A stretch of DNA of 64,000 nt, from NCBI GenBank assembly GCA_039812885.1, contig JBDIBI010000003.1, forward strand, positions 143,237 through 207,236, in the 5' to 3' direction. This DNA is from Blastocatellia bacterium (GTDB lineage: Bacteria > Acidobacteriota > Blastocatellia > Chloracidobacteriales > JADJPF01). The translations under genes and the position numbers were made by a program. This document shows positions 3,480-57,092 of this stretch, piece by piece. Every line of letters begins with the position of its first letter. Within the stretch, counting starts at the first letter, position 1. Under the pieces are notes generated by a model, which saw only the letters and a program-made list of their open reading frames with translations, made no database searches and had not been told where the DNA came from.

Positions 3480-3596
3480 TAAATTGATTTTTAGGTTGCT
3501 TTTCCTCACACAATACTGCATAAACTCGTTATTTATGTTATGATTGCCGTTAAAATGCCCTACATTGCTTTAAAATAAAAATAGCCTTAGATCAAA

Positions 3597-6482
3597 ATGC
3601 AAAATTTTAGCAGCAAAAATAAACAATTCTCCCGCTCAACAGATGATTTATTACAACCTTCTGCTGAAGATATTGAGCGTGAATTACAAGAAAAGCTAGC
3701 CTCTTTGGGTATTAACTTAAGTGGTGGCAGTTCTTCTTTTAGTACACGTGCTACAGGGGCATTACCAGGTGGTTCAGTTGATAAACGTACAACTACACTT
3801 GATATAGGAGAATTGCGTAATGCACTTAAACAGCAAATTAGCATTGCAGAAATAAAGACAGAAATAGAAAAAACTATTCGTCAAATAATTAAAGCTGGGC
3901 CTATTTCACATGGCGAGACACAAGAATTAGAACTAAAAGCTGCTATGTTAATGATTCCTTATTGTAGAGAGTATATACCAGATTTTCCTGAAGAAGTTAG
4001 ACCCGCAGAATTTGCTGTAGATCTTAATTTACAAGATATTATTGATTTTCACTCAGACACTAGTGAGCTTTCAGAAGAAGAATTAATAGAAACAATTGAG
4101 CAATATGCTGTTCAAATTATTCAAACTTTACTTAGTCATCCTCTAATTCCACAAAAAGATGCAAAAAAGATAGGTGTTGATCTAAAAACTACATCCTTAA
4201 AAGACGAACGAGGTACAGCAATGTACTCTAGTAGTGATGCTCAGTTTCTAGAAGTACTTTTTGGGGAAGCCAAACTTCTAGAAAGAGGTGGAGAGGTTGG
4301 TCTTTTAGCTATTTTAATCTCTGCAAAAAAATGGAACAAAATAGATAGTGAAACTCTCTTTAATAATGCGGTTTTATATACTTTAGAAGCTATGGCTAAA
4401 AGAAAAGGAGTTCCTTCTATTATTTTACGTAGCCAAGGCGGAGATCACCCAATAGCCTATATTTTAGGCGAGTATATTGTTCATTGTATTGATCAATCTC
4501 TAGAATCATTAATTAAATTTGTAGAAGATTTTATTACTATTGTTTACGATGCTCTTAATGCTCCTAAAGAAGAATTTCTTAATAATATTTATCATCAGTA
4601 TTTACCTAAGCTTAAAACTATTTTTCATAATTCTATACATGAATCTTTTGATCGTTTTATCGAAACTTTCCGCCGCGAATACCAAAATTCTCAACAAACT
4701 ATTCGTAGTAAAGTATTCTTTCTTAAACGTGTAGGGGATCTTTGTGAGCTTTCTTTTTACACTTATGAAGCTATTAACGCTTTGCAATCAGCTTCAGGTG
4801 AAGTATATGCAAAAGAAAATTTAGATGAAGGCACTAAGCACTATGCAGTACGTAATAATATTCCTTTGGATGAAAGCTTAGATATACTTTCACAAAAAAA
4901 CACTCTAGCAGATTTACTTTTATTTATCTTAAAACAAAGGTGTTCACTTCAAAAAGATGGCATAAAAGCACATTTTGTTTCTAAGTTGATGAATGATACG
5001 CTATTTTTTTTAGATAGTTTGCGTAGGGTATTTGATCATAGCTATGCACGTGGCCGAGCAGTTTCTAGTAGTGATTATAGCAATTGGGAAGAAGTTGTAG
5101 CAGATTGTTCACGTGGGTATGGACGCTTAGTTTTTGGACGTAATTTAAATGATACAGAAAGATATCATTTTGAGAATATATATAGAAAGCTTTTGGAAAA
5201 ACATTTATCTTTCTTTGATTTACAATCTCCTATGGTTTTTTCAGGTTCAGACTTTAAGCTAGAAAAACTAGCTAAGACAAAAAGCCCAGAAGATGCACTC
5301 AAAGAAAAGTTTTTACAGTTTTTAATAGCACTTCATCAAGCTTTGCTTAATTTTAATCCTGACAAACCGGATGAAATAATTAAAGTAAAAGATAATTTAG
5401 ATGTTTTAGCAAAAACACTACCTAATTCAAATGTTTCTGCTCAACAAAATAACACAGCTGCTTTTACTCTAGAAGCTGTACAGACTCGTGTATTGCTTTC
5501 ACAAAGCGAATTACCATTTTCTGATTACACAATAGAAGCTCTTTTAGCGGCAGTTACTCCTGATGCAAAGGATAAAACCCTTTTAACACAAGCTTTGCGT
5601 GCCTCTATTGAACTATCTGAAAAAGCTACAATTGGTGAAGAATTTTTAGCTGCAATAAATTTTCTTCAGAATTTGCGACAGCGCATTAGCTTGATTATTA
5701 GTTTCAATGAACAAGAAAAAGAACAATGGAACACTACAATTGCTGCTTCATTAAAGGATTTGCAACAAGGTGATCCTATTGCACTTTCTTCTTATGGAAT
5801 AATTCTCAGTGAAATAGATGAATGGGAATTATCAGCAGAACGTATTTTAAGCGAATGGAAAAACCCAGAAACTACAATTTTGCGAATACAACAAATTCTT
5901 TTTATTCTGCTACTTAAACGTAACAATGCAGAAATGCAAAATTTAATAGATCAATATCAACGTTGGATTAGTTTAAATACTTTGCCTAGTAGCTCTGTAC
6001 GTCGTAAAGTCTTTGAGAAACGTCTTCAAATATTGCTAAAATTTTCTCGTCAAAGTCCAATAAGAATTAACTTTTTAAAATTTTTGTTGTCTATGATGAG
6101 ATATGCACAATTATCTTATCAAGTAACAAATTGGGAGCAACCAGAAGCTTATTTACTAGAAGACTTATTAGCTGTAGAAACACCTACAAGACGAATTCAG
6201 CAAATTGATACAATACTTTCTACTAAAGAACCGGAAAAAGTCCAAAATCTGGTTCAAAAATTTGCTAGCGTATTGCAAGAACGTTTCCAACAAAGTGCTT
6301 CAGGTTATAGTTATTATACCGACGAGGAAAAATCACTAATGCAAGATAGATTAAGCAAATTTGAAGCTATTAGTAAACGTACTTCTTGGCAAGCTACTAA
6401 AGAACGTTGGCTTTTTTCTCTGGGTCATTTTTTGGTTAAACCAATGAAGAAATTGTCTAATCAACAAATAGTCGATAATTAG
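3597..6482 (+). CDS. Large uncharacterised protein (961 aa)
   Basis: Long uninterrupted ORF, co-directional with and 117 bp downstream of the previous giant ORF. I could recognise no enzymatic or nucleotide-binding motif. The composition looks mostly helical. Confidence 0.55.
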   Translation: MQNFSSKNKQFSRSTDDLLQPSAEDIERELQEKLASLGINLSGGSSSFSTRATGALPGGSVDKRTTTLDIGELRNALKQQISIAEIKTEIEKTIRQIIKAGPISHGETQELELKAAMLMIPYCREYIPDFPEEVRPAEFAVDLNLQDIIDFHSDTSELSEEELIETIEQYAVQIIQTLLSHPLIPQKDAKKIGVDLKTTSLKDERGTAMYSSSDAQFLEVLFGEAKLLERGGEVGLLAILISAKKWNKIDSETLFNNAVLYTLEAMAKRKGVPSIILRSQGGDHPIAYILGEYIVHCIDQSLESLIKFVEDFITIVYDALNAPKEEFLNNIYHQYLPKLKTIFHNSIHESFDRFIETFRREYQNSQQTIRSKVFFLKRVGDLCELSFYTYEAINALQSASGEVYAKENLDEGTKHYAVRNNIPLDESLDILSQKNTLADLLLFILKQRCSLQKDGIKAHFVSKLMNDTLFFLDSLRRVFDHSYARGRAVSSSDYSNWEEVVADCSRGYGRLVFGRNLNDTERYHFENIYRKLLEKHLSFFDLQSPMVFSGSDFKLEKLAKTKSPEDALKEKFLQFLIALHQALLNFNPDKPDEIIKVKDNLDVLAKTLPNSNVSAQQNNTAAFTLEAVQTRVLLSQSELPFSDYTIEALLAAVTPDAKDKTLLTQALRASIELSEKATIGEEFLAAINFLQNLRQRISLIISFNEQEKEQWNTTIAASLKDLQQGDPIALSSYGIILSEIDEWELSAERILSEWKNPETTILRIQQILFILLLKRNNAEMQNLIDQYQRWISLNTLPSSSVRRKVFEKRLQILLKFSRQSPIRINFLKFLLSMMRYAQLSYQVTNWEQPEAYLLEDLLAVETPTRRIQQIDTILSTKEPEKVQNLVQKFASVLQERFQQSASGYSYYTDEEKSLMQDRLSKFEAISKRTSWQATKERWLFSLGHFLVKPMKKLSNQQIVDN

Positions 6483-7019: not shown

Positions 7020-10000
7020 ATGAGACTAACACCATCTATTGAAGCAGTTTTAGGGACAGTGATTGATGGAAAATATCGTCTCGATAGTTTGGTTGGTATA
7101 GGTGGAATGGGACGAGTTTTTCGTGCTACTCACCTACAACTTAATAAAACTTTTGCCCTTAAGCTAATGAGCTTTCCTGCTAATGATTCCCCTCAACTTG
7201 CTAGATTTAAACGTGAAGCAGAAGCACTAGGTAAAATACGCCATCCAAATGTAGTAGGTGTTACCGATTTCGGTATCACATCTAATCATACACCTTATAT
7301 AGTTATGGAATATGTTGAAGGTGTATCACTACGTACTATGATGGAACGTCAAGGGCGTTTAAATGAGCGTCAGGCTGTACTAATTGCTAGGCAAGTTTGT
7401 GCTGGTCTTTATGCTGCTCACTTACAAGGTATTGTACATCGTGATTTGAAACCAGAAAATATCATGATAGAAGATCTTGTAGATGGTGAATTATTAGTTA
7501 GAGTTTTGGACTTTAGTATTGCCAAATTGTTACAGGTTGATGATGAAGATGACAATATAAGTGAGCATGAAGAATTGTTAGGGACAGTGAAATATATGAC
7601 ACCAGAACAATTCTTAGGTAGTGTAGTGGATGCTCGCTCAGATATTTTTGGTATATGTTTAGTTGTTTATGAAATGCTTGCAGGAATTGTTCCACCTGCT
7701 ACTGTTTCACTTGCACAGCCTTTGCGAGAAGTAAGAACTGATATTTCTCCTCGTCTGAGCGATATTTTACAAAAAGGACTTTCCACACTACCAGAAAAAC
7801 GCCAACAATCCACTTTAGAGCTAAAACGTGAGTTTGAAAGTTTAGAATTTACCAGTAATGTTGATGCTAGCACTCAGTATTCACAAAGTCTTAGCAGACA
7901 TAGCTTAAATACTCCTGGAGAGTCACTAGTTTCTTTAGAGTTAGAGATTGGTAAAGATATTTCTTATTACCGCATTCTTGAGAAACTAGGCGAAGGTGGA
8001 ATGGGGGAAGTTTACCTAGCTGAAGATACTAGATTAGGTCGCAAAGTTGCTCTTAAGCTACTTCCAACAGAAATTATTAAAGATCCAGTTAGAATTAAAA
8101 GATTTGAACAGGAAGCCCGCACAGCTTCAGCTCTAAACCATCCAAATATAATTACTATTTATGAAATAGGTAATTTTGAAAGAATCTACTTTATTGCAAC
8201 AGAATATATTGAAGGCTTTACTTTAAGACAAAGAATATCTGAAGGGCTTTCTATGAAGGAAGCTTTGGAAATTGCAATACAAATAGCTAATGCCTTAGCT
8301 GTTGCTCATCCAGCAGGTGTGGTACATCGTGATATTAAGCCTGGCAATATAATGTTGCGTTCAGATGGATATGTTAAAATTTTAGATTTCGGACTAGCGA
8401 AATTTACGGATATTGATGAATCAAACCAAAAACCAAAAGAATTAGTTGGAACTAATACAGAAGCAGGGAAAATCATTGGGACTCCCAAATATATGTCTCC
8501 TGAACAAGCTCGTGGTCAAGCTGTAGATGCTCGTACAGATATTTTTAGTTTTGGGGTCGTTCTTTATCAAATGTTTACAAGTAAAGTGCCTTTTGATGGA
8601 GCTACTAATTCAGATATCATCGTTTCAGTCCTAGAGCATGAACCTGTTCCAATTAGCTATTACTTGCTCCAATGTCCTCCAGAACTAGAGAGAATTATTT
8701 CTAAAGCTTTACGCAAAGATAAAGATGAGCGTTATCAAACAGTTAAAGATATGCTCTTGGATCTAAAAAACTTAAAGCAGAAACTTGATTTTGAAAATGA
8801 ATTTAACCGTAGTTCTAATTCAGAGGCTTCTAGTTCAAGTGGAGAGAACCTTTATACAAACAAAATAGATATAACAAATAAAATAGAAACTTCAGATAAT
8901 ACAGAAAAGAGCTTAAAACCCCAGGAAATATCTACAAATACTAATACTCCTAGAAAAAAAACAGCAATACTAGCTATATGGATATTGGTCTTATTAGTAG
9001 TCAGTTTAACAACAGGCTATTTAGTTTTTTACAAAAAAGGTTTTAACAGCAAGAAAGCCCGTAGTTTAGCAATATTGCCATTTCGCAATATGAAAAAAGA
9101 TGCAGATACAGATTTTCTTAGCTTTTCTCTTGCTGATGCAGTAATTAATAAATTAGGTTATGTGGATTCTTTAACCTTACGCCCTTCTTCTGCTATTAAT
9201 AAATACCGAAACCAAGATGATATTGATTCTAAAAAAGTAGCCAGTGAACTCCATGTTAATACTCTGTTACTGGGAAGTTTTCAAAAAGAAGGTGACGACT
9301 TAAGAATTACAGCACAACTTGTAGATGTAGATAATGATCAAGTAATTTGGGTTGATACCCTAAATGTTAAGTACGATAAATTGCTAACTGTACAAAGTAA
9401 AGTCGCAAATCAAATAGTTAAAGGACTAGAAATAAAACTTAATCCAAATGAGGCTGAAGAACTAAAACGCAATTTAACAGCTGACCCTCTAGCTTATGAA
9501 TATTGTTTGCGGAGCGTAGATTTATTAGCACTTTCTGCCAATAATTTTCCTAGAGCTCAAGAAATGCTTGAAAAAGCTGTATCAATAGATCGCAATTATG
9601 CCTTAGCTTGGGCTTACTTGGGATTATGTTATTCTTCTGCTGCTACGGCTCAATATAAAGGCTCAGAGTACTATACTAAAGCCCAGGAAGCCTATGATAA
9701 AGCGATAGATTTAGATAAAGATCAAATTGAAGCTCGTCTCTTTAGCGCTACATTACTAACAGATACTGGTCATGTGGAAGAGGCTGTTAATAGGCTAAAG
9801 AAAATAATAGAGAAAAAACCTCGTTTAGCTTCAGCTTATTGGGAACTAAGTTATGCTTATCGTTATGCTGGTATGTTAAATGAATCCATTATTGTTGGTG
9901 AACGAGCTATAGACTTAGACCCAAGTGTAATGAATAGAACATTTAATAGCTATTTTTATAATCAAGAATATCAAAAATTTATAGATAGTCTGCCAGCTTT

Positions 10001-10448
10001 AGAAGACTCATACTTTATATTCTATCGAGGTTTTGGTTTTTATTACCTAAAAGATTTTACTAAAGCTAAACAAGAATTTGATAAAGCTTATAAACTCAAC
10101 CCAGATCAGCTTTTTGCTCAAGTTGGAAAAGCCTTTAGCCTTTCTATTGAAAATAAAGCAAATGAAGGTATTGCTTTGCTAAAAGGTAGTGAAAAGAAAA
10201 TTAGAGAAGGAGGCGTAAGCGATGGAGAAGCTATCTACAAAATAGCTCAAGCTTATGCGGTTTTAGGAGATAAAGCTTCAGCTCTAGAGACTTTGCGATT
10301 GAGCATTGAAAAAGGCTTTTTTTGCTATCCTTATTTTACGAGAGATGAATTGTTAAATAACATTCGCTCAGAAAAAGAGTTTTCTGACATAATGGAAAGT
10401 GCTCATAAACGCCATGAAGATTTTAAGAAAAGATTTTCTAGCTTTTAG
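7020..10448 (+). CDS. Tandem (double) Ser/Thr protein kinase, TM helix, periplasmic domain and TPR repeats
   Basis: Kinase domain 1: GIGGMGRVF, FALKLM, HRDLKPEN, DFSIAK (DFG replaced by DFS), GTVKYMTPEQ. Kinase domain 2: GEGGMGEVY, VALKLL, HRDIKPGN, DFGLAK, GTPKYMSPEQ. A TM segment (ILAIWILVLLVVSLTTGYLVFY) follows, then SLAILPFRN...FLSFSLADAVINKL and multiple TPR-like repeats. Confidence 0.85.
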   Translation: MRLTPSIEAVLGTVIDGKYRLDSLVGIGGMGRVFRATHLQLNKTFALKLMSFPANDSPQLARFKREAEALGKIRHPNVVGVTDFGITSNHTPYIVMEYVEGVSLRTMMERQGRLNERQAVLIARQVCAGLYAAHLQGIVHRDLKPENIMIEDLVDGELLVRVLDFSIAKLLQVDDEDDNISEHEELLGTVKYMTPEQFLGSVVDARSDIFGICLVVYEMLAGIVPPATVSLAQPLREVRTDISPRLSDILQKGLSTLPEKRQQSTLELKREFESLEFTSNVDASTQYSQSLSRHSLNTPGESLVSLELEIGKDISYYRILEKLGEGGMGEVYLAEDTRLGRKVALKLLPTEIIKDPVRIKRFEQEARTASALNHPNIITIYEIGNFERIYFIATEYIEGFTLRQRISEGLSMKEALEIAIQIANALAVAHPAGVVHRDIKPGNIMLRSDGYVKILDFGLAKFTDIDESNQKPKELVGTNTEAGKIIGTPKYMSPEQARGQAVDARTDIFSFGVVLYQMFTSKVPFDGATNSDIIVSVLEHEPVPISYYLLQCPPELERIISKALRKDKDERYQTVKDMLLDLKNLKQKLDFENEFNRSSNSEASSSSGENLYTNKIDITNKIETSDNTEKSLKPQEISTNTNTPRKKTAILAIWILVLLVVSLTTGYLVFYKKGFNSKKARSLAILPFRNMKKDADTDFLSFSLADAVINKLGYVDSLTLRPSSAINKYRNQDDIDSKKVASELHVNTLLLGSFQKEGDDLRITAQLVDVDNDQVIWVDTLNVKYDKLLTVQSKVANQIVKGLEIKLNPNEAEELKRNLTADPLAYEYCLRSVDLLALSANNFPRAQEMLEKAVSIDRNYALAWAYLGLCYSSAATAQYKGSEYYTKAQEAYDKAIDLDKDQIEARLFSATLLTDTGHVEEAVNRLKKIIEKKPRLASAYWELSYAYRYAGMLNESIIVGERAIDLDPSVMNRTFNSYFYNQEYQKFIDSLPALEDSYFIFYRGFGFYYLKDFTKAKQEFDKAYKLNPDQLFAQVGKAFSLSIENKANEGIALLKGSEKKIREGGVSDGEAIYKIAQAYAVLGDKASALETLRLSIEKGFFCYPYFTRDELLNNIRSEKEFSDIMESAHKRHEDFKKRFSSF

Positions 10449-20017: not shown

Positions 20018-20043
20018 TAAACAAATATTAGCTTGCAAGTAAT

Positions 20044-20080
20044 ATATTAACCTGGGGTTTAAGCGAAGCTATACCCCAGG
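20044..20080 (+). repeat. Solo right-type hairpin of the dispersed repeat family
   Basis: atattaa then cctggggt-(14 nt)-accccagg. This is the same motif as at 26510-26554 and 42057-42102. It ends 26 nt before the pgi ATG. Confidence 0.7.
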
Positions 20081-22512: not shown

Positions 22513-24150
22513 ATGAAACAATGTCCTAAGTGTAATGCCCAATATAGTGATGACCAAGCGGTTTGTCCTATAGATGCAACTGTTTTAGTAGACACAAAAG
22601 GCAATCAAGTTAATGTTGATCCAATGCTTGGTCGTGTAATTGCTGATAAGTATCGTATAGAAAAACTAATTGGACGTGGTGGAATGGGTGCAGTGTATGA
22701 AGGGCAACATATGCTGCTAGATAGACGTGTTGCTATCAAGGTATTACAACAAAATATGGCTAATGATGAACAAGCTGCTACTAGATTTATTCGTGAAGCA
22801 AAAGCTTGTGCTAGGATAGAACACCCTAATGCTGTAACTATATATGATTTTGGCGTACTTCAAGAAGGAAGTGCTTATTTGGTGATGGAGTTTATTAAAG
22901 GTTATTCTCTACGCCAGCTTATGATGCAACAAAAACCTTTAACCCCAGAGCAAATTGCTGAGTGGATGATACAAGTTTGTAATGTAGTTGAGGCTGCACA
23001 CCAACAAGGTATTATTCATAGAGATCTTAAACCAGAAAATGTAATGCTAAAAGAAACTCCAGATGGATCTGTAATTGTTAAAGTTGTAGATTTTGGACTA
23101 GCAAAAATTACCTCTGAATCTGGATCTGAAAAGGCTAGCACAAATTTGACTAAGCCAGGAGAAATGTTAGGCACTCCGCATTATATGGCGCCGGAATATT
23201 ATGAAGGCGAAACAATAGATAACCGTGCTGATATTTATGCTATAGGTATTATGATGTATGAGTTGTTTTGTGGAGATACCCCTTTTACTGGCACAGTTCA
23301 AAGTATAATTGGAGGACATCTTTTTAAAGATCCACAACCAATTATTAACTTCAACCCTTCTATCCATCCAGCTCTAGATCAAGTTGTTCAGAAAGCATTA
23401 AAGAAAAAACGTGAAGAAAGAATAGCTTCAGCTTCAGAACTAACCCAAGAACTTAAAAAAGCATTAAAAGTTGCTAGGGAGTTTTTCTTCCAAAAAACAG
23501 ATGTACAAACACCATTAGAGGCAGAGGAATTTAAAGCAGGTTCTCTTGATTCTGAGCAACAAACCTCTGAACTAAAGAAAGATACTTTATTCCAAGCTGA
23601 CTCTCCACAAATCTTAAAAACTGAAAAAGTAATTCCTGCTTCACATAAAGAAACTACAAAAATTCAAGAGATCCCTTCTCAAAATAAGCTTACTCAACAA
23701 ATGAATCTAGAAGCTTTAGAATCTCTTGGTATAGGGCTAGAAGCCAAAACACCAGAAGCTAATAAAGCTGTACCTGCAACCCAAAAAGTAGTTATAGATG
23801 ATGTTATATCTGATAAACCAACAGAGTCCTCTTTTACTTCTGCTTCTACTTTGCCTCAACCTCCTGTAGTTGCCGGAGTTGGTATCGCAATTAGCACTCC
23901 CAATAAAGTAATTAATCCAGTTCCTAATACTCAACCAATTACTCCACCTAGTGTTGCTCCTAACCAACTTCAAGTCCAAATACAATCAACAACTAATGCT
24001 CCTCAAACAGGTGAACTTAAACAAGAATATGAAACTTTGTCAGATGTTCTTTCTGCCTTAAAAGGTCAATTAATAATAGGCTCAATTATTGTGGTTCTTT
24101 TAGCAATTATGGTAAGTTTACTTGTTATATATCGTCTAGAAGTTCACTAA
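22513..24150 (+). CDS. Ser/Thr protein kinase with N-terminal zinc ribbon and C-terminal TM anchor
   Basis: CPKCNAQYSDDQAVCPID zinc ribbon. Kinase motifs GRGGMGAVY, VAIKVL, HRDLKPEN, DFGLAK, GTPHYMAPE. Low-complexity Pro/Thr linker, then TM helix LIIGSIIVVLLAIMVSLLVIY. Confidence 0.85.
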   Translation: MKQCPKCNAQYSDDQAVCPIDATVLVDTKGNQVNVDPMLGRVIADKYRIEKLIGRGGMGAVYEGQHMLLDRRVAIKVLQQNMANDEQAATRFIREAKACARIEHPNAVTIYDFGVLQEGSAYLVMEFIKGYSLRQLMMQQKPLTPEQIAEWMIQVCNVVEAAHQQGIIHRDLKPENVMLKETPDGSVIVKVVDFGLAKITSESGSEKASTNLTKPGEMLGTPHYMAPEYYEGETIDNRADIYAIGIMMYELFCGDTPFTGTVQSIIGGHLFKDPQPIINFNPSIHPALDQVVQKALKKKREERIASASELTQELKKALKVAREFFFQKTDVQTPLEAEEFKAGSLDSEQQTSELKKDTLFQADSPQILKTEKVIPASHKETTKIQEIPSQNKLTQQMNLEALESLGIGLEAKTPEANKAVPATQKVVIDDVISDKPTESSFTSASTLPQPPVVAGVGIAISTPNKVINPVPNTQPITPPSVAPNQLQVQIQSTTNAPQTGELKQEYETLSDVLSALKGQLIIGSIIVVLLAIMVSLLVIYRLEVH

Positions 24151-26031: not shown

Positions 26032-26091
26032 CCAAGATACGTTTCTTGATTCCAAGATACGCTTCTTGATTCCAAGATACGCTTCTTGAAC
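26032..26091 (+). repeat. Three tandem 20-bp units
   Basis: ccaagatacg(t/c)ttcttga(tt/ac) x3. Each unit can form a small caaga/tcttg hairpin. The units lead straight into the larger repeat array. Confidence 0.8.
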
Positions 26092-26360
26092 CCCAGGTTA
26101 CGCTTCGCTAAAACCTGGGGCTAATATGGGTTTGGCGATTTGAATTTTGAGCTATTTTAATAAATGCACTCATTTTTTTGAACCCCAGGTTGCGCTCCTT
26201 TCACTCGCTAAAACCTGGGGCTAATATGGGTTTGGCAATTTGAATTTTGAGCTATTTTAATAAATGCACTCATTTTTTTGAACCCCAGGTTGCGCTCGTT
26301 TCACTCGCTAAAACCTGGGGCTAATATGGGTTTGGCGATTTGAATTTTGAGCTATTTTAA
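26088..26360 (+). repeat. Three direct tandem copies (92, 100 and about 81 bp) of the left-type hairpin unit
   Basis: Each unit reads gaa-CCCCAGGTT-loop-AACCTGGGG-ctaatatgggtttggc(g/a)atttgaattttgagctattttaataaatgcactcattttttt. Copies 2 and 3 differ at only 2 positions over their shared length. A degenerate fourth copy lies at about 26385-26460. Confidence 0.85.
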
Positions 26361-26509
26361 AATATTAGTTTGGAGTTGTGCTTTTTTGAATCCTAGGTTA
26401 TGGGGTTAATGTAGGTTGAGCAATTATGAAATTAGGTAGTTTCAATAATTAAACCTACTTAAAAAATATATAAACCCGAGATTTAGTCAGACTCAAAATT
26501 AGGGAAAAT

Positions 26510-26554
26510 ATATTAGCCTGGGGTTTTAACGAGTGAAACGAGTGCAACCCCAGG
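26510..26554 (+). repeat. Right-type terminal hairpin closing the repeat array
   Basis: atattag-CCTGGGGTT-ttaacgagtgaaacgagtgc-AACCCCAGG. The loop is the reverse complement of the left-type loops. It ends 2 nt before the ATG at 26557 and 14 nt before the ATG at 26569. Confidence 0.8.
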
Positions 26555-41915: not shown

Positions 41916-42102
41916 AACCCCAGGTAACGCTCGTTATTACTCGCTAGAACCTGGGCTAATATGGGTTGAGCAAATTGAAAAATGAGCTATTTCAATAATT
42001 AAATCTCTTGCAAACGGAATTCTATGAAAATGGATCTTATTGCGTAATCGAGCCATATATTAGCCTGGGGTTTTAGCGAGCGTTAGCGAGCGCAACCCCA
42101 GG
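41916..42102 (+). mobile_element. Complete 187-bp copy of the dispersed repeat (MITE/REP-like): left-type hairpin, AT-rich core, right-type hairpin
   Basis: Left: ccccaggt-loop-acctggg-ctaatat (41918-41962). Core shares gagctatttcaataattaaa with the 26.4-kb array. Right: atattag-CCTGGGGTT-loop-AACCCCAGG (42057-42102). It has no coding capacity and ends 13 nt before the ATG at 42116. Confidence 0.55.
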
Positions 42103-42115
42103 AAATGGAGGAACA

Positions 42116-45094
42116 ATGATAAACAAATCTAGAAACACAATTTTCCTCATATTATTATTGATTTTAGTTGTGCCAAATATTCAAGCACAAAGTGGACGTA
42201 ATCGCCCTGAGCCAAATCCGCCAAGCAATCCGCCAAGTAATCCAAATCCACCAAAAAATACAGAGCCTAAAAAGGACAACTCTACACAACCTAGTAATCC
42301 TACTAGCAATACAAAGCCAACAAATGTTCCTCCAGGCAAAGTTTTAGTTCCTAGTGGTGCAGCAATTGCTTCTCAAGAACATACTGGAGTAACTTCTCGA
42401 TATGTTTTTAAAAATGGTGTGACTGTTATTGTTCGCGAAGATCATTCTATTCCACTAGCTGCTTCAACTGTGATGGTAAAAGCAGGTGCTAGTTATGAAG
42501 GAGAAGATCAAGTAGGTGTTTCTCGTGTAGTAGAAAGACTTTTAGCTGAGTCTTCAAATAATGAACAAGATCCATTACGTCAATTAAGATTATTGGGTGG
42601 AGTATTAAGAACTAAAACAGACTTTGAATCGACTAGTTATAGTTTGTTAGGACAATCAGCTAATTTCACTAAATTGCTAGAAATGCAGTTTCGTAGCCTT
42701 CAACGACAAAGTTTTACAACAGAAGATGTTAATCGTGCAGCTAAATTTGTACTTCAAACTAACCGCTATAAATTAGATGATCCTCTTAGTTATAGCCAAC
42801 AAAGAATTTTACAAGCTGCCTTTGATAATAACCCTAACCAAAATGTCTTAGATGAAACTAAATTAGTTACCAAAGAACAAGCTCAAGCATTTTATGATAA
42901 ATATTATCGTGGTGGAAATATTATAGTAGTTATAGTGGGGGATATTACTGCTGATGCTGCTCGATTAGCTGCTCAGCAATTTCTTGGAGCCTTAAAGCCT
43001 AGTGAACCAGTTAGCAAACAATCTTCAAAACCTACTGAAGGCAGTCCGATTCGCTATCTAGCAGAGCGGGCAGATATTAATCAAACAGTTGTGTCTGTTG
43101 GTTATCGAGTTAATGACATTAAAGATAGTGCTGTGTTTGAGGTATTAGGCGCTATTTTAACCAAAGGTAGAGGAGCATTGTTACCACAAGCTTTAATTGA
43201 ACCTTCTTTTGCTTCTAAAATTGGAGCAGGTTATGTTGCTACTAATAAAGGCGCACTGTTTTCTTTCCAAATGCAAGTTGTTCCTGAGCGCTTGGTCAAA
43301 GCTGAAAATGCACTGTTTGACCAAATTGAGGCTTTGCGTCGGATAGTGTTATCTCCTGCGGATCTACAACGTGCTAAATCACTTCTTGAAAAGGATTATT
43401 ACACTAGTACTTTGGATTTAACAAAGTTATCTAGTCAAATTGCTTTTTGGGAATTAAGAGGTGGTTATAAAAATTTTGATAGCTATGTAAAACGAATAAA
43501 AGCTGTTACGGCTGAACAAGTTCAAGAATTAGCAGCACAGTATTTTAATTTTAGTACTTCCATTGTGCATGAATATGAACCACGTAATGCTCCTGCACGC
43601 CTTGCGGGTTCAGACGCAACTTATACACCAGATCGCTTTGATTCTTATATTAAAGTCCTAGTTCCAGATACACATAAAGAGACTATTTCTAAAGATGAGA
43701 TTAGCTATGCTTCTGAAAAACCTTTGGCTAAACAAGGGAAAGAAAAAGTTGAACAAACAACAGAAAGCGGATTTATTTTAGAACTTCAACCACAACCAGT
43801 TCGTGAATTTAACACTTTGCATGGACCTCGCGCTATAGTTCGTGAAGATCAAGCACGTCCTTTAATTTCTGTAGGCTTTTTCTTTCAAGGTGGAAGAATT
43901 TTAGAAAAAGATGCTAGTAATGGTATTACCGAGCTAATGTTACGTAGTATTTTGCGAGGGACTCAACGTCAAACTGGGTCAGAACTTGCTTCATTTTTAG
44001 AACAGTTAGGTGCTGAAGTAAAAATAGTTAATGAGCCAGATTTCTTTGGTTTCACAATTGAAATGCTTTCTCGCAATGCTGAAGTAGTAATGAAACAAGT
44101 AATTACCACAATGGAAAACCCACTTTTTGATAAAGATGATGTAGCTAGAGAAAGAGGTAGTTTACTTGCTGCAATTCAAGCTTCAAAAGACAATGGAGCA
44201 ACTTCAGCCTTAGAAATTACTAATTCATTACTGTATGGGGACCATCCTTATGGATTTGCTCTGCTTGGTTCAGAAAAGGCTGTTTCTAAATTTACAGAAA
44301 CAGATGTTTCCGATTGGTATCAAAAAACAATTAAGCACCAAATCCCTTTAGTGGTAATTGTTGGAGATACTGAAGGGTCTTCACTAGTAGGAAGACTTAT
44401 AGCAGATGGATTTTCTCGTCTAGAACAACAATTAGATAAGTCTATATCTGTTCCTATTGTCAATGTTCATAGTCCAGCTGGAGAAAAAACAGAAGTTAGA
44501 GAAAGACGGCAAACTTCTCAAGTTCTACAATTTAGCGTTCCAGAAGGTAAAAATAAGGATAAATATGCTATAGATGTAATACGTCAACTTATAGATGGGC
44601 CTGGAGGACGTATTTTAACAAGTATTCAGCAGCAACAACTTAGCTTTGATTTTTCTACAGAAATAAAAACTAATCAGCAACGTAGTAGCTTTTTAATTTA
44701 TCTAAATTCTGCTTCGGATCAAGAACAAAAAGCTCGTACAGTTGTTGAAGATGAATTTCGTCGTTTAATCAATAGTCCTGCAAATGAACAAGAAATTGCT
44801 GCTGCACGTAGTTGCGCAGCAGCAGAACAAACTCAACTCTTAAGAGATCATACTAATAGAGTTATTGCTTATGCTAAATATACGTTCTTAACTATTCCGT
44901 TTGCTGATGTTGATGAAGTAGCAGAAAAAATTTTAGCTATTGGCAAAGATGATGTAAAACGAGTTTTACAAAGTTATTTTTCTCCTGAAAAACGTGCTTT
45001 AGGTGTAATTAGAGGATCAATTAGTACAACAAATACAACAAATACAACTACAACACCTGTTCAAAGCACTACACCAAATACAGGAAACAAGTAA
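42116..45094 (+). CDS. Secreted M16 (pitrilysin/insulinase) family homologue, double-length, apparently lacking the catalytic zinc motif
   Basis: Signal peptide plus Pro/Asn-rich linker. Two M16-like halves. Where HxxEH is expected the first half reads GVSRVVERLL (RxxER) and the second GITELMLRSIL. Confidence 0.7.
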   Translation: MINKSRNTIFLILLLILVVPNIQAQSGRNRPEPNPPSNPPSNPNPPKNTEPKKDNSTQPSNPTSNTKPTNVPPGKVLVPSGAAIASQEHTGVTSRYVFKNGVTVIVREDHSIPLAASTVMVKAGASYEGEDQVGVSRVVERLLAESSNNEQDPLRQLRLLGGVLRTKTDFESTSYSLLGQSANFTKLLEMQFRSLQRQSFTTEDVNRAAKFVLQTNRYKLDDPLSYSQQRILQAAFDNNPNQNVLDETKLVTKEQAQAFYDKYYRGGNIIVVIVGDITADAARLAAQQFLGALKPSEPVSKQSSKPTEGSPIRYLAERADINQTVVSVGYRVNDIKDSAVFEVLGAILTKGRGALLPQALIEPSFASKIGAGYVATNKGALFSFQMQVVPERLVKAENALFDQIEALRRIVLSPADLQRAKSLLEKDYYTSTLDLTKLSSQIAFWELRGGYKNFDSYVKRIKAVTAEQVQELAAQYFNFSTSIVHEYEPRNAPARLAGSDATYTPDRFDSYIKVLVPDTHKETISKDEISYASEKPLAKQGKEKVEQTTESGFILELQPQPVREFNTLHGPRAIVREDQARPLISVGFFFQGGRILEKDASNGITELMLRSILRGTQRQTGSELASFLEQLGAEVKIVNEPDFFGFTIEMLSRNAEVVMKQVITTMENPLFDKDDVARERGSLLAAIQASKDNGATSALEITNSLLYGDHPYGFALLGSEKAVSKFTETDVSDWYQKTIKHQIPLVVIVGDTEGSSLVGRLIADGFSRLEQQLDKSISVPIVNVHSPAGEKTEVRERRQTSQVLQFSVPEGKNKDKYAIDVIRQLIDGPGGRILTSIQQQQLSFDFSTEIKTNQQRSSFLIYLNSASDQEQKARTVVEDEFRRLINSPANEQEIAAARSCAAAEQTQLLRDHTNRVIAYAKYTFLTIPFADVDEVAEKILAIGKDDVKRVLQSYFSPEKRALGVIRGSISTTNTTNTTTTPVQSTTPNTGNK

Positions 45095-56900: not shown

Positions 56901-56936
56901 CTAACCTCAAGCCGCCCGGCTTGGGGTTAGTGTTTT
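56901..56936 (+). terminator. Intrinsic terminator after hsp20
   Basis: ctaacctcaagcc-gccc-ggcttggggttag, a 13-bp stem with one G-U pair, followed by tgtttt. Confidence 0.6.
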
Positions 56937-56989: not shown

Positions 56990-57092
56990 GAACAATTTAT
57001 TTGTGGCGATTTACAGCAAATTGCTCCACGTTAAAAACTGCTAAAAAGCTGGGAGATTTTAACCCCTGTGCTATTTAGCGCAGGGGTTTTTA
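56990..57092 (+). ncRNA. Candidate roughly 100-nt sRNA or terminator-containing leader of the DinB-family gene
   Basis: Bounded by the promoter above and a strong intrinsic terminator, cccctgtgc-tattta-gcgcagggg plus tttttagctttt (57063-57092). There is an internal hairpin gcgattt-acagc-aaattgc and no ORF of meaningful length. Confidence 0.35.

What the first reader, a model, noticed from the sequence alone, without database searches (positions are those of the whole stretch)
41916..42102. Dispersed MITE/REP-like element with non-equivalent left and right hairpins; right-type hairpins always abut a start codon
Seen directly: a complete 187-bp copy lies here, a solo right end at 20044-20080, and the composite array at 26.0-26.6 kb. 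Left type is CCCCAGGTT-loop-AACCTGGGG-CTAATAT. Right type is ATATTAG-CCTGGGGTT-loop'-AACCCCAGG. The flanking heptamer and the loop are reverse complements between the two ends, as expected for inverted termini. The stems are not. The exact reverse complement of a left end would again start CCCCAGGTT, yet all three right ends have CCTGGGGTT. The three central base pairs are therefore exchanged on both arms, which preserves pairing. That consistent compensatory asymmetry suggests the folded hairpin (ssDNA or RNA), not just the sequence, is what is maintained. All three right-type hairpins are on the plus strand and end 26 nt (pgi), 2-14 nt (JAB) and 13 nt (M16 homologue) before a start codon, just upstream of the RBS. 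Established knowledge: REP/BIME elements and IS200/IS605-type ends are hairpins recognised as single strands by Y1 (RAYT/TnpA) transposases, with distinct left and right ends. Inference: this is a similar family, or a hairpin with a post-transcriptional role at 5' UTRs.
Basis: partly seen in the sequence, partly recalled or inferred. Interest (0 to 1): 0.55.

Follow-up and report, generated by a model that had tools for sequence, protein, structure and literature searches.

The report
REP-like hairpin repeat, paired ends
This is a small repeated DNA element built from two tagged hairpins facing each other, a relative of the bacterial REP repeats that single-strand (Y1/IS200-type) transposases handle; it was inserted recently between genes and is not a conserved gene-control signal.

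Summary
The window holds exactly seven hairpin-plus-heptamer units at three intergenic loci (20.0, 26.0-26.6 and 41.9-42.1 kb). Four are left type and three are right type, and the two types have their three central stem base pairs swapped.

A pattern scan of public genomes and metagenomes found 12 further copies in 50-68% GC DNA. All have complementary arms. Four stem variants occur, or five counting the window's right type. Several of these copies match Rfam RF01687, the Acido-Lenti-1 motif of unknown function.

In four independent lineages, arrays of such units flank a single-copy 148-152 aa Y1 (IS200-like) transposase gene, as in a REPtron. Unequal left and right hairpins recur in two of these lineages. 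They correspond to the REP "heterodimers" already described.

In relatives with conserved gene order, all three window sites are empty. There the intergenic regions are 27-57 nt at two sites, and the third holds unrelated repeats. The hairpins are therefore lineage-specific insertions, not conserved 5'-UTR elements. Elsewhere in the family the units do not sit next to start codons.

No Y1 gene lies in the window.

Verdict: a new, AT-rich member of the REP/BIME/REPIN kind. A useful side result links Acido-Lenti-1 to Y1 transposases.

The parts
41916..42102 (+). Complete 187-nt element: two tagged hairpins with the tags facing inward (a tail-tail REP heterodimer) around a 94-nt spacer.
   Evidence: The whole element folds as one long hairpin, z = -5.6 for both DNA and RNA. 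The site is empty in relative L026.
41918..41962 (-). Left unit. Hairpin CCCAGGT-23 nt-ACCTGGG plus tag CTAATAT (41956-41962). On the - strand it reads ATATTAG followed by the hairpin.
   Evidence: 39.1 bits, E = 4e-7.
41963..42056 (+). Spacer. Its left half is about 75% identical to the spacer of the 26.4-kb element. It contains a 7-bp AT hairpin, ATTGAAA...TTTCAAT.
   Evidence: (family D4).
42057..42102 (+). Right unit. Tag ATATTAG plus hairpin CCTGGGGTT-21 nt-AACCCCAGG. It ends 13 nt before the ATG of the M16 peptidase gene and 4 nt before GGAGG.
   Evidence: 56 bits. M16 Pfam domains.
20044..20080 (+). Solo right unit. Tag ATATTAA plus hairpin CCTGGGGT-14 nt-ACCCCAGG, 26 nt before the pgi ATG. 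A stray partial tag ATATTAGC lies at 20025-20032.
   Evidence: 37.2 bits. Identical in three Logan contigs. Absent from relatives L015, L017 and L019.
26032..26089 (+). Tandem 20-nt repeats (2.9 copies) that copy the outer arm and half the loop of the first left hairpin.
26091..26327 (-). Three left units in 100-nt tandem repeats: 26091-26127, 26183-26227 and 26283-26327.
   Evidence: family D1; 43.8-54.1 bits.
26383..26554 (+). Last element of the array. It has a degenerate left hairpin (about 26389-26412), a spacer, and an intact right unit at 26510-26554. The right unit ends 2 nt before one in-frame ATG and 14 nt before the next, in the gene upstream of the ThiF-like gene.
   Evidence: (52.5 bits). 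The orthologous intergenic region is only 27-33 nt in L017 and L019.

Best explanation
The elements are REP-type repeats. Each unit is a short tagged palindrome: 5'-ATATTAG followed by a 9-bp stem CC-NNN-GGTT / AACC-N'N'N'-GG with a variable loop.

The units occur in three forms: as inverted pairs with the tags inside (a BIME/REPIN-like tail-tail heterodimer of 187 nt), as solo units, and as tandem arrays.

Inferred mechanism: a Y1 HUH transposase of the IS200-like class recognises the folded hairpin plus its 5' tag on single-stranded DNA, probably at replication forks, and cuts and rejoins it. This spreads copies into intergenic DNA. Arrays then grow by slippage or recombination. The enzyme would be encoded elsewhere in this genome, or has been lost.

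The two ends are two sub-types of the same hairpin, with three stem base pairs swapped. Each local hairpin stays intact, while the alternative end-to-end pairing is weakened by about 12 kcal/mol as DNA.

Shown here: the copies are recent, lineage-specific insertions placed just upstream of the ribosome-binding sites of pgi, a gene next to ThiF, and an M16 peptidase gene. Any effect on those mRNAs would be secondary.
For: 1. Seven units at three loci, far above chance, and nothing else in the 64 kb.

2. The pattern scan left the three central positions of each arm free. All 12 hits in public DNA nevertheless have fully complementary arms: CCCGGGG, CCCCGGG and CCCCAGG in the scan, plus CCCCCGG, CCGGGGG and CCAGGGG found nearby. 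They share the loop word AGCGAAGCG with the window copies.

3. On alignment A3 the three central pairs show 17 double-sided changes, and 97.6% of cells are paired against 86.5% in shuffles.

4. The related loci hit Rfam RF01687 Acido-Lenti-1, up to 45.3 bits against a gathering score of 37.

5. Y1_Tnp genes (Pfam E = 5e-24 and 4e-22) lie between arrays of the units in L010 and L011. The same holds for homologues fetched independently: L021/22 and L023-25. The L023-25 gene keeps the same neighbours in different samples, so it is single-copy and REPtron-like.

6. Left/right heterodimers with the tags inside recur in L008/L013 and L010.

7. All three window sites are empty in syntenic relatives. 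There are no model hits in about 78 kb of relatives.

8. The element folds as a long hairpin, z = -5.6. The stem swap costs that form 12 kcal/mol (DNA) or 16 kcal/mol (RNA) and leaves the local hairpins unchanged.

9. All three loci have one orientation, and GC skew is uniformly positive. This fits the strand bias expected of Y1 elements.
Against: - No Y1 gene lies in the window, and the rest of the genome could not be searched.
- The window copies do not hit RF01687, even at E <= 10.
- The link to the GC-rich family rests on a pattern derived from the window, plus the shared loop word and shared architecture.
- The tag is TTAG/ATAG, not the canonical GTAG.
- The associated Y1 proteins score as IS200-type, not as RAYT: the NCBIfam REP_Tyr_transpos model gives 18-21 bits against a cut-off of 80, and the nearest solved structures are the IS608 and ISDra2 TnpA proteins.
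- Only three loci are available, so copy number and orientation bias across the genome are unknown.
- Mobility is inferred from presence/absence between lineages. It was not observed.
Confidence: 0.7

Rival explanations
1. The right-type hairpin is primarily a cis-acting RNA element in 5' leaders, controlling mRNA stability, RNase processing or translation. Selection keeps it next to ribosome-binding sites.
For: All three right hairpins end 4-8 nt before a Shine-Dalgarno-like run and 2-26 nt before a start codon, co-oriented with the gene. A rough estimate suggests this is somewhat closer than uniform insertion within the free part of the intergenic regions would give, by my own estimate p of about 0.02. 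Compensatory changes preserve the stem. Rfam lists the related Acido-Lenti-1 as a likely RNA (PMC2864571).
Against: The orthologous leaders of pgi, the ThiF-neighbour gene and the M16 gene in relatives (pgi 83-94% identical; M16 69%) have no such hairpin. Left-type units, tandem arrays and solo units are not explained. In other lineages the units face gene 3' ends or lie 170-190 nt from starts. No promoter or terminator signal exceeds shuffles. No one-sided G-U intermediates appear among the stems.
Confidence: 0.1
2. It is a classical MITE: a deletion derivative of a DDE-transposase insertion sequence with terminal inverted repeats, moved by cut-and-paste. The hairpins are only incidental parts of the inverted termini.
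For: The 187-nt size, the inverted ends (heptamers and loops are reverse complements), the long-hairpin fold, and presence/absence between lineages.
Against: No target-site duplication is visible at the three loci. Solo single ends and head-to-tail arrays of one end only are typical of REPs, not MITEs. Each end is itself a conserved palindrome with covariation. The related units flank Y1 genes, not DDE genes. No transposase gene lies in the window.
Confidence: 0.08
3. It is a non-autonomous derivative of a true IS200/IS605 insertion sequence (a PATE-like element), retaining the left and right ends of a mobile IS, rather than a REP serviced by a resident single-copy gene.
For: The associated Y1 proteins pass the NCBIfam IS200 model (61-67 bits, cut-off 55). 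They carry Y---Q rather than the RAYT Y---NP motif and are nearest to IS608 TnpA among solved structures. The two ends are not equivalent, as in IS200/IS605.
Against: IS200/IS605 ends carry hairpins in direct orientation; here they are inverted. The Y1 genes are flanked by arrays of several units on both sides and keep the same chromosomal neighbours across samples, which is REPtron-like. The Y---Q--HH signature is that of TnpAY1 subclass 1.2, described as low-copy and not IS-like (PMC6006769).
Confidence: 0.1

Closest known systems
REP / BIME / REPIN elements with their RAYT (TnpA-REP) genes, such as E. coli REPs and Pseudomonas REPINs
   Same: Short intergenic palindromes with a conserved tag at the 5' foot of the hairpin. 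They occur as singletons, inverted dimers and clusters. Dimers can be made of two sub-types (heterodimers; Y/Z REPs). A whole dimer can fold as one hairpin. In related loci a single-copy Y1 HUH gene is flanked by the repeats (a REPtron).
   Different: The tag is ATATTAG (xTAG), not GT[AG]G. GC-rich relatives have a second small hairpin beyond the tag. The associated Y1 proteins are IS200-like (Y---Q--HH) rather than class-2 RAYTs (Y---NP). No Y1 gene was seen in the 64-kb window.
Rfam RF01687, the Acido-Lenti-1 RNA motif (Weinberg et al. 2010, PMC2864571)
   Same: Hairpin 1 followed by CUAAUxU. This is the window's left-type orientation. Found in Acidobacteria and Lentisphaerae; the window's nearest named relatives are MAGs labelled Acidobacteria. 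Loci retrieved with the window's motif reach the family's gathering score (L010, 45.3 bits).
   Different: The window copies have long loops, lack a recognisable hairpin 2, and do not score against the model. Rfam treats the motif as an sRNA of unknown function. Here it appears on both strands as inverted pairs flanking Y1 genes, so it behaves as a DNA repeat.
IS200/IS605 insertion sequences and their miniature derivatives
   Same: Y1 HUH enzyme of the same class. Subterminal hairpins are recognised as single strands, and the left and right ends are non-equivalent.
   Different: IS ends have hairpins in direct orientation and specific flanking cleavage tetranucleotides. Here the ends are inverted, arrays and solo units occur, and the related Y1 genes look single-copy.
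TnpAY1 subclass 1.2 (Quentin et al. 2018, PMC6006769)
   Same: The Y1 proteins next to the related repeats carry the subclass signature Y---Q--HH (YIANQMEHH, YINSQEAHH). They are about 150 aa long and low-copy.
   Different: [quoted passage not shown] The passages I read report no repeat family associated with it. Here the genes sit in arrays of tagged hairpins. Membership was judged on the motif only.
Correia/NEMIS, RPE and other TIR-type MITEs
   Same: Size of 100-200 nt, inverted ends, intergenic location close to gene starts, and potential RNA hairpins in transcripts.
   Different: No target-site duplication. Each end is an autonomous palindrome. Single-end arrays occur. There is no link to DDE transposases.

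Membership tests
REP/BIME/REPIN (REPtron) elements | Short (20-45 nt) hairpin-forming repeats, multi-copy and intergenic | tested here: met
   Seven units of 37-46 nt at three intergenic loci and none inside genes.
REP/BIME/REPIN (REPtron) elements | Conserved tag GT[AG]G at the 5' foot of the hairpin | tested here: not met
   A conserved tag exists, but it is ATATTAG, ATATTAA, AGTATAG or AAAATAG, that is xTAG. It is analogous to the canonical tetranucleotide, not identical.
REP/BIME/REPIN (REPtron) elements | Inverted dimers that can fold as one hairpin; clusters | tested here: met
   Tail-tail dimers at 41916-42102 and 26383-26554. Long-hairpin minimum-energy fold, z = -5.6. Cluster at 26.0-26.6 kb.
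REP/BIME/REPIN (REPtron) elements | A cognate Y1 gene flanked by the same repeats in the same genome | not testable with these tools
The feature is met in related lineages L010, L011, L021/22 and L023-25.
REP/BIME/REPIN (REPtron) elements | Associated protein is a class-2 RAYT (Y---NP motif; NCBIfam REP_Tyr_transpos) | tested here: not met
   The motif is Y---Q--HH. REP_Tyr_transpos scores 18-21 bits against a cut-off of 80; the IS200 model scores 61-67 bits against a cut-off of 55.
Rfam RF01687 Acido-Lenti-1 | Covariance-model score at or above the gathering score (37 bits) | tested here: not met
   The window has no hit at the gathering score or at E <= 10. Related loci do hit: L010 at 45.3 bits twice, others at 21-35 bits.
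Rfam RF01687 Acido-Lenti-1 | Architecture: hairpin 1, CUAAUxU linker, 5-bp hairpin 2 | tested here: inconclusive
   Hairpin 1 and CTAATAT are present. In the 41.9-kb copy only an AT-rich 7-bp hairpin lies 17 nt further on. The array units have no clear hairpin 2.
IS200/IS605 and miniature derivatives | Left and right subterminal hairpins in direct orientation on one strand; multi-copy units that carry tnpA | tested here: not met
   The ends are inverted. The related Y1 genes keep fixed neighbours across samples.
TIR-type MITE | Terminal inverted repeats bounded by a target-site duplication | tested here: not met
   No duplicated flank at any of the three loci beyond A-rich runs.
TnpAY1 subclass 1.2 (proteins of the related loci) | Y---Q--HH signature and low copy number | tested here: met
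   YIANQMEHH and YINSQEAHH. Same neighbours in 3-4 samples. Definition taken from PMC6006769. No phylogeny was done.

The most novel reading that the evidence does not exclude
The orphan 'Acido-Lenti-1 RNA' is not an sRNA gene. It is the REP of a previously unrecognised REPtron system run by IS200-like Y1 proteins of subclass 1.2, a group with no known substrate, spread across Acidobacteria-labelled MAGs, Verrucomicrobia and Lentisphaerae.

In this reading the swapped stem base pairs of the two ends are a selected design. They keep two separately folding hairpins, or distinguish the 5' end from the 3' end, for the enzyme.

The AT-rich window lineage would also insert its copies preferentially a few bases upstream of ribosome-binding sites.
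Probability: 0.3. Interest if true: 0.6.

Novelty: new member of a known kind. Interest (0 to 1): 0.4.

Why it matters
For this genome the finding is ordinary. The three odd intergenic regions are occupied by a REP-type repeat that arrived recently, so they should not be annotated as regulatory RNAs or used as conserved 5'-UTR motifs.

The wider value is a testable link between three things. One is an Rfam motif of unknown function (Acido-Lenti-1). The second is a class of IS200-like Y1 proteins that had no known DNA partner. The third is the REP/REPIN way of life in poorly studied phyla.

The left/right stem swap also gives a clean natural experiment on how Y1 enzymes read hairpin shape as opposed to hairpin sequence.

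Tried and rejected
- **Rfam scans.** At gathering thresholds the window gave nothing. At E <= 10 it gave only spurious miRNA and snoRNA matches caused by the long inverted repeat.
- **tRNA scan.** Nothing found.
- **Promoter and terminator scans** of the elements gave counts no higher than shuffles. The hairpins are not followed by T runs. This rejects intrinsic terminators and outward sigma-70 promoters.
- **Search for a Y1 gene in the window.** tblastn with the L010 Y1 protein found nothing. Pfam on ten window ORFs found only housekeeping domains.
- **One failed look-up.** The Luteolibacter homologue P0130 was not on record.
- **My idea that the stem swap abolishes end-to-end pairing** was rejected. 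The long hairpin is still the minimum-energy fold; the swap only reduces its advantage, from -20 to -8 kcal/mol as DNA.
- **Start-codon adjacency as a family rule** is rejected by the other lineages.
- The single genome-collection scan and the single metagenome scan were both spent on one strict pattern, so copies with variant tags were found only when they lay near a hit.
- **Not achieved.** The window's own genome beyond 64 kb could not be reached, so genome-wide copy number and orientation were not obtained.

Full report
**1. What is in the window**

- Left-type units read CCCCAGGTT-loop-AACCTGGGG-CTAATAT.
  - They lie at 26091-26127, 26183-26227 and 26283-26327.
  - A slightly eroded copy, with arms one base shorter, lies at 41918-41962.
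- Right-type units read ATATTAG-CCTGGGGTT-loop-AACCCCAGG.
  - They lie at 26510-26554 and 42057-42102.
  - A variant at 20044-20080 has tag ATATTAA and an 8-bp stem.

These patterns have zero expected matches in shuffled sequence. The 7-mer CCCCAGG occurs 16 times against 1.5 expected.

A covariance model built from the units and run with filters off finds exactly these seven units (37-56 bits) in the 64 kb. Nothing else rises above noise.

The 26-kb locus is a composite:
- 2.9 copies of a 20-nt repeat that duplicates the outer arm;
- three 100-nt tandem units, each with one left hairpin;
- a last complete element with a degenerate left hairpin.

The heptamers and loops of the two ends are reverse complements. 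The three central stem pairs are swapped instead (CCA/TGG against TGG/CCA).

**2. The hairpin is conserved as a structure across distant lineages**

I scanned one genome per species (GTDB) and the JGI metagenomes with ATATTAGCCYSRGGTT-N(8-30)-AACCYSRGG. This pattern leaves the three central positions of each arm free, so only 8 of the 64 combinations pair.

The 12 matches lie in 11 stretches of DNA with 50-68% GC, against the window's 34%. All 12 have fully complementary arms.

- Three stem types occur among the matches: CCCGGGG, CCCCGGG and CCCCAGG.
- Neighbouring copies add CCCCCGG, CCGGGGG and CCAGGGG.
- Several matches share the loop word AGCGAAGCG with the window copies. The pattern did not require this.

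On the 24-unit alignment A3 the three central pairs show 17 double-sided changes. One position uses C-G, U-A, G-C and A-U. Overall 97.6% of cells pair, against 86.5% in shuffles and at most 72% for slid partners.

Part of that set was selected for being hairpins. The unbiased evidence is the 12 out of 12 from the pattern scan.

**3. What family it is**

An Rfam scan of the retrieved loci hits RF01687, the Acido-Lenti-1 motif. Scores reach 45.3 bits against a gathering score of 37.

- The model is hairpin 1, then CUAAUxU, then a small hairpin 2.
- Its sense strand corresponds to the window's left-type orientation.
- Acido-Lenti-1 was described in 2010 as a probable sRNA of Acidobacteria and Lentisphaerae with no known function (PMC2864571). 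A 2026 preprint still calls its function unknown.
- The window's nearest named relatives, by pgi at 78-84% identity, are MAGs labelled Acidobacteria or Acidobacteriota.
- The window copies themselves do not score against RF01687, even at E <= 10. They have long loops and no clear hairpin 2.

The window elements are therefore relatives of the motif, not members of the family by Rfam's criterion.

**4. Link to Y1 transposases**

Contig L010 (1.2 kb) carries five RF01687 matches on both strands. They surround a 152-aa ORF.

- The ORF is a Y1_Tnp protein (Pfam E = 5e-24).
- L011 has a 40%-identical homologue between two arrays of units.
- I then searched for homologues of these proteins and fetched their contigs without reference to the repeats.
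- L021/L022 (73% identical, downstream of secY-cmk) and L023-L025 both show arrays of tagged hairpins next to the gene.
- The L023-25 gene has the same neighbours in several samples, so it is a resident single-copy gene. This is the REPtron arrangement described for RAYTs (PMC6006769).

The proteins are not canonical RAYTs.

- They pass NCBI's IS200 model (61-67 bits, cut-off 55) and fail REP_Tyr_transpos (18-21 bits, cut-off 80).
- Among solved structures their best matches are the IS608 and ISDra2 TnpA proteins.
- They carry Y---Q--HH. Quentin et al. give this as the signature of TnpAY1 subclass 1.2, a low-copy, non-IS group for which the passages I read report no associated repeats.
- No Y1 gene is present in the window. 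The rest of the genome was out of reach.

**5. Left/right non-equivalence**

Pairs with the tags inside and different stems recur in other lineages.

| Locus | Left stem | Right stem |
|---|---|---|
| L008/L013 | CCCCCGGTG | CCCCGGGTT |
| L010 | CCCGGGGTT, long loop | CCAGGGGA, 4-nt loop |
| L011 | same as right | same as left |

This matches what Di Nocera et al. call tail-tail REP heterodimers. They note that heterodimers with different stems are common and unexplained (PMC3733652). E. coli BIMEs combine Y and Z REPs.

The complete 187-nt element is predicted to fold end-to-end as one long hairpin, with z = -5.6. Replacing the right stem by the exact inverse of the left would stabilise that form by 12 kcal/mol (DNA) or 16 kcal/mol (RNA). 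The local hairpins would not change.

The swap therefore shifts the balance toward two separately folded hairpins, but it does not abolish the long form. Whether this is selected is inference.

**6. Are the hairpins 5'-UTR elements?**

Synteny around all three loci is kept in relatives.

- **Site upstream of the ThiF-neighbour gene.** The intergenic region is 27-33 nt in L017 and L019, against 524 nt in the window.
- **TonB-like to M16 site.** The intergenic region is 57 nt in L026, against 252 nt in the window.
- **E1-pgi site.** In L015, L017 and L019 this region holds other, unrelated repeats and no copy of this element.
- **Model search.** Model R1 finds nothing in about 78 kb of relatives.

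All three copies are therefore lineage-specific insertions.

The native ribosome-binding sites are retained immediately downstream of the right hairpins. Insertion into very short spacers largely explains the closeness to start codons.

A rough estimate of my own still suggests the right ends are somewhat closer to the Shine-Dalgarno runs than uniform insertion would give (about p = 0.02). With three loci this is only a hint.

In other lineages the units lie 48-270 nt from ORFs, in co-directional, convergent and divergent settings. No promoter or terminator signal exceeds shuffles.

The shared orientation of the three loci coincides with uniformly positive GC skew. This is what a strand-biased, single-strand transposition mechanism would give, but three loci prove nothing.

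**7. Verdict**

The element is a new AT-rich member of the REP/BIME/REPIN kind. It is most likely mobilised in trans by an IS200-like Y1 enzyme (confidence about 0.7).

- Its two ends are a REP heterodimer.
- Its position next to start codons is mostly a by-product of insertion into tight intergenic regions.
- The more interesting by-product is the evidence that the orphan Acido-Lenti-1 motif is the repeat partner of subclass-1.2-like Y1 genes. This deserves a systematic test.

Noticed in passing
window 26032-26089; L004 about 7668-7740; L006 about 1615-1700; L011 about 3518-3620 and 4298-4440: Short tandem duplications (15-20 nt) that copy the outer arm plus part of the loop lie directly beside the hairpin in unrelated lineages. 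This may be a footprint of the cleavage-and-rejoining or slippage process that amplifies these repeats.
   Followed up: partly
window 26528-26548 and 42073-42093: The long loops of the right hairpins are themselves 9-10-nt direct duplications (AACGAGTGA x2.3; TTAGCGAGCG x2). The short-loop copies carry one unit.
   Followed up: partly
window 20058-20071 and 26100-26111 (- strand); L005, L007, L008, L013, L014 loops: Short loops contain GC-GNA-GC (GCGAAGC or GCGCAGC), and only on the strand where the tag is 5' of the hairpin. From my own recollection, d(GCGAAGC) is a very stable DNA mini-hairpin. This would point to single-stranded DNA of that strand as the recognised form.
   Followed up: no
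L015 7095-7240; L017 9831-10000; L019 9825-10000: The E1-pgi intergenic region of each relative holds a different, unrelated hairpin or tandem-repeat element. The site looks like a hot spot for small repeats across the clade.
   Followed up: no
L010 1-1226; L011 3290-4520; L021 3460-3868; L023 2700-3700: Y1 (IS200-like, Y---Q--HH) genes are embedded in arrays of Acido-Lenti-1-type units, so an Rfam 'sRNA' behaves as a REP. I found no paper making this link among the five that mention the motif.
   Followed up: partly
window 42116-42169: The public gene call for the M16 peptidase (P0241, 974 aa) starts 18 codons after the ATG at 42116. That ATG has a GGAGG 8 nt upstream and would encode a signal-peptide-like N-terminus, so the public start is probably too late.
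   Followed up: no
L004 7629-7800 and L006 1576-1810 (RGIG4413 MAG): Both units in this rumen MAG, which is labelled Proteobacteria, lie upstream of Ser/Thr kinase genes. The window also carries kinase paralogues (7020-10448, 22513-24150). This is probably coincidence, and the MAG's phylum label looks doubtful.
   Followed up: no
window 1-64000: GC skew is positive throughout and the cumulative skew rises steadily, so the window lies within one replichore with the + strand as the leading-strand sequence.
   Followed up: partly
window 56905-56933 and 57056-57086: Two G+C-rich short hairpins lie between the Hsp20 and DinB-family genes, unrelated to the element. The second is followed by a T run and is probably an ordinary terminator.
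   Followed up: no
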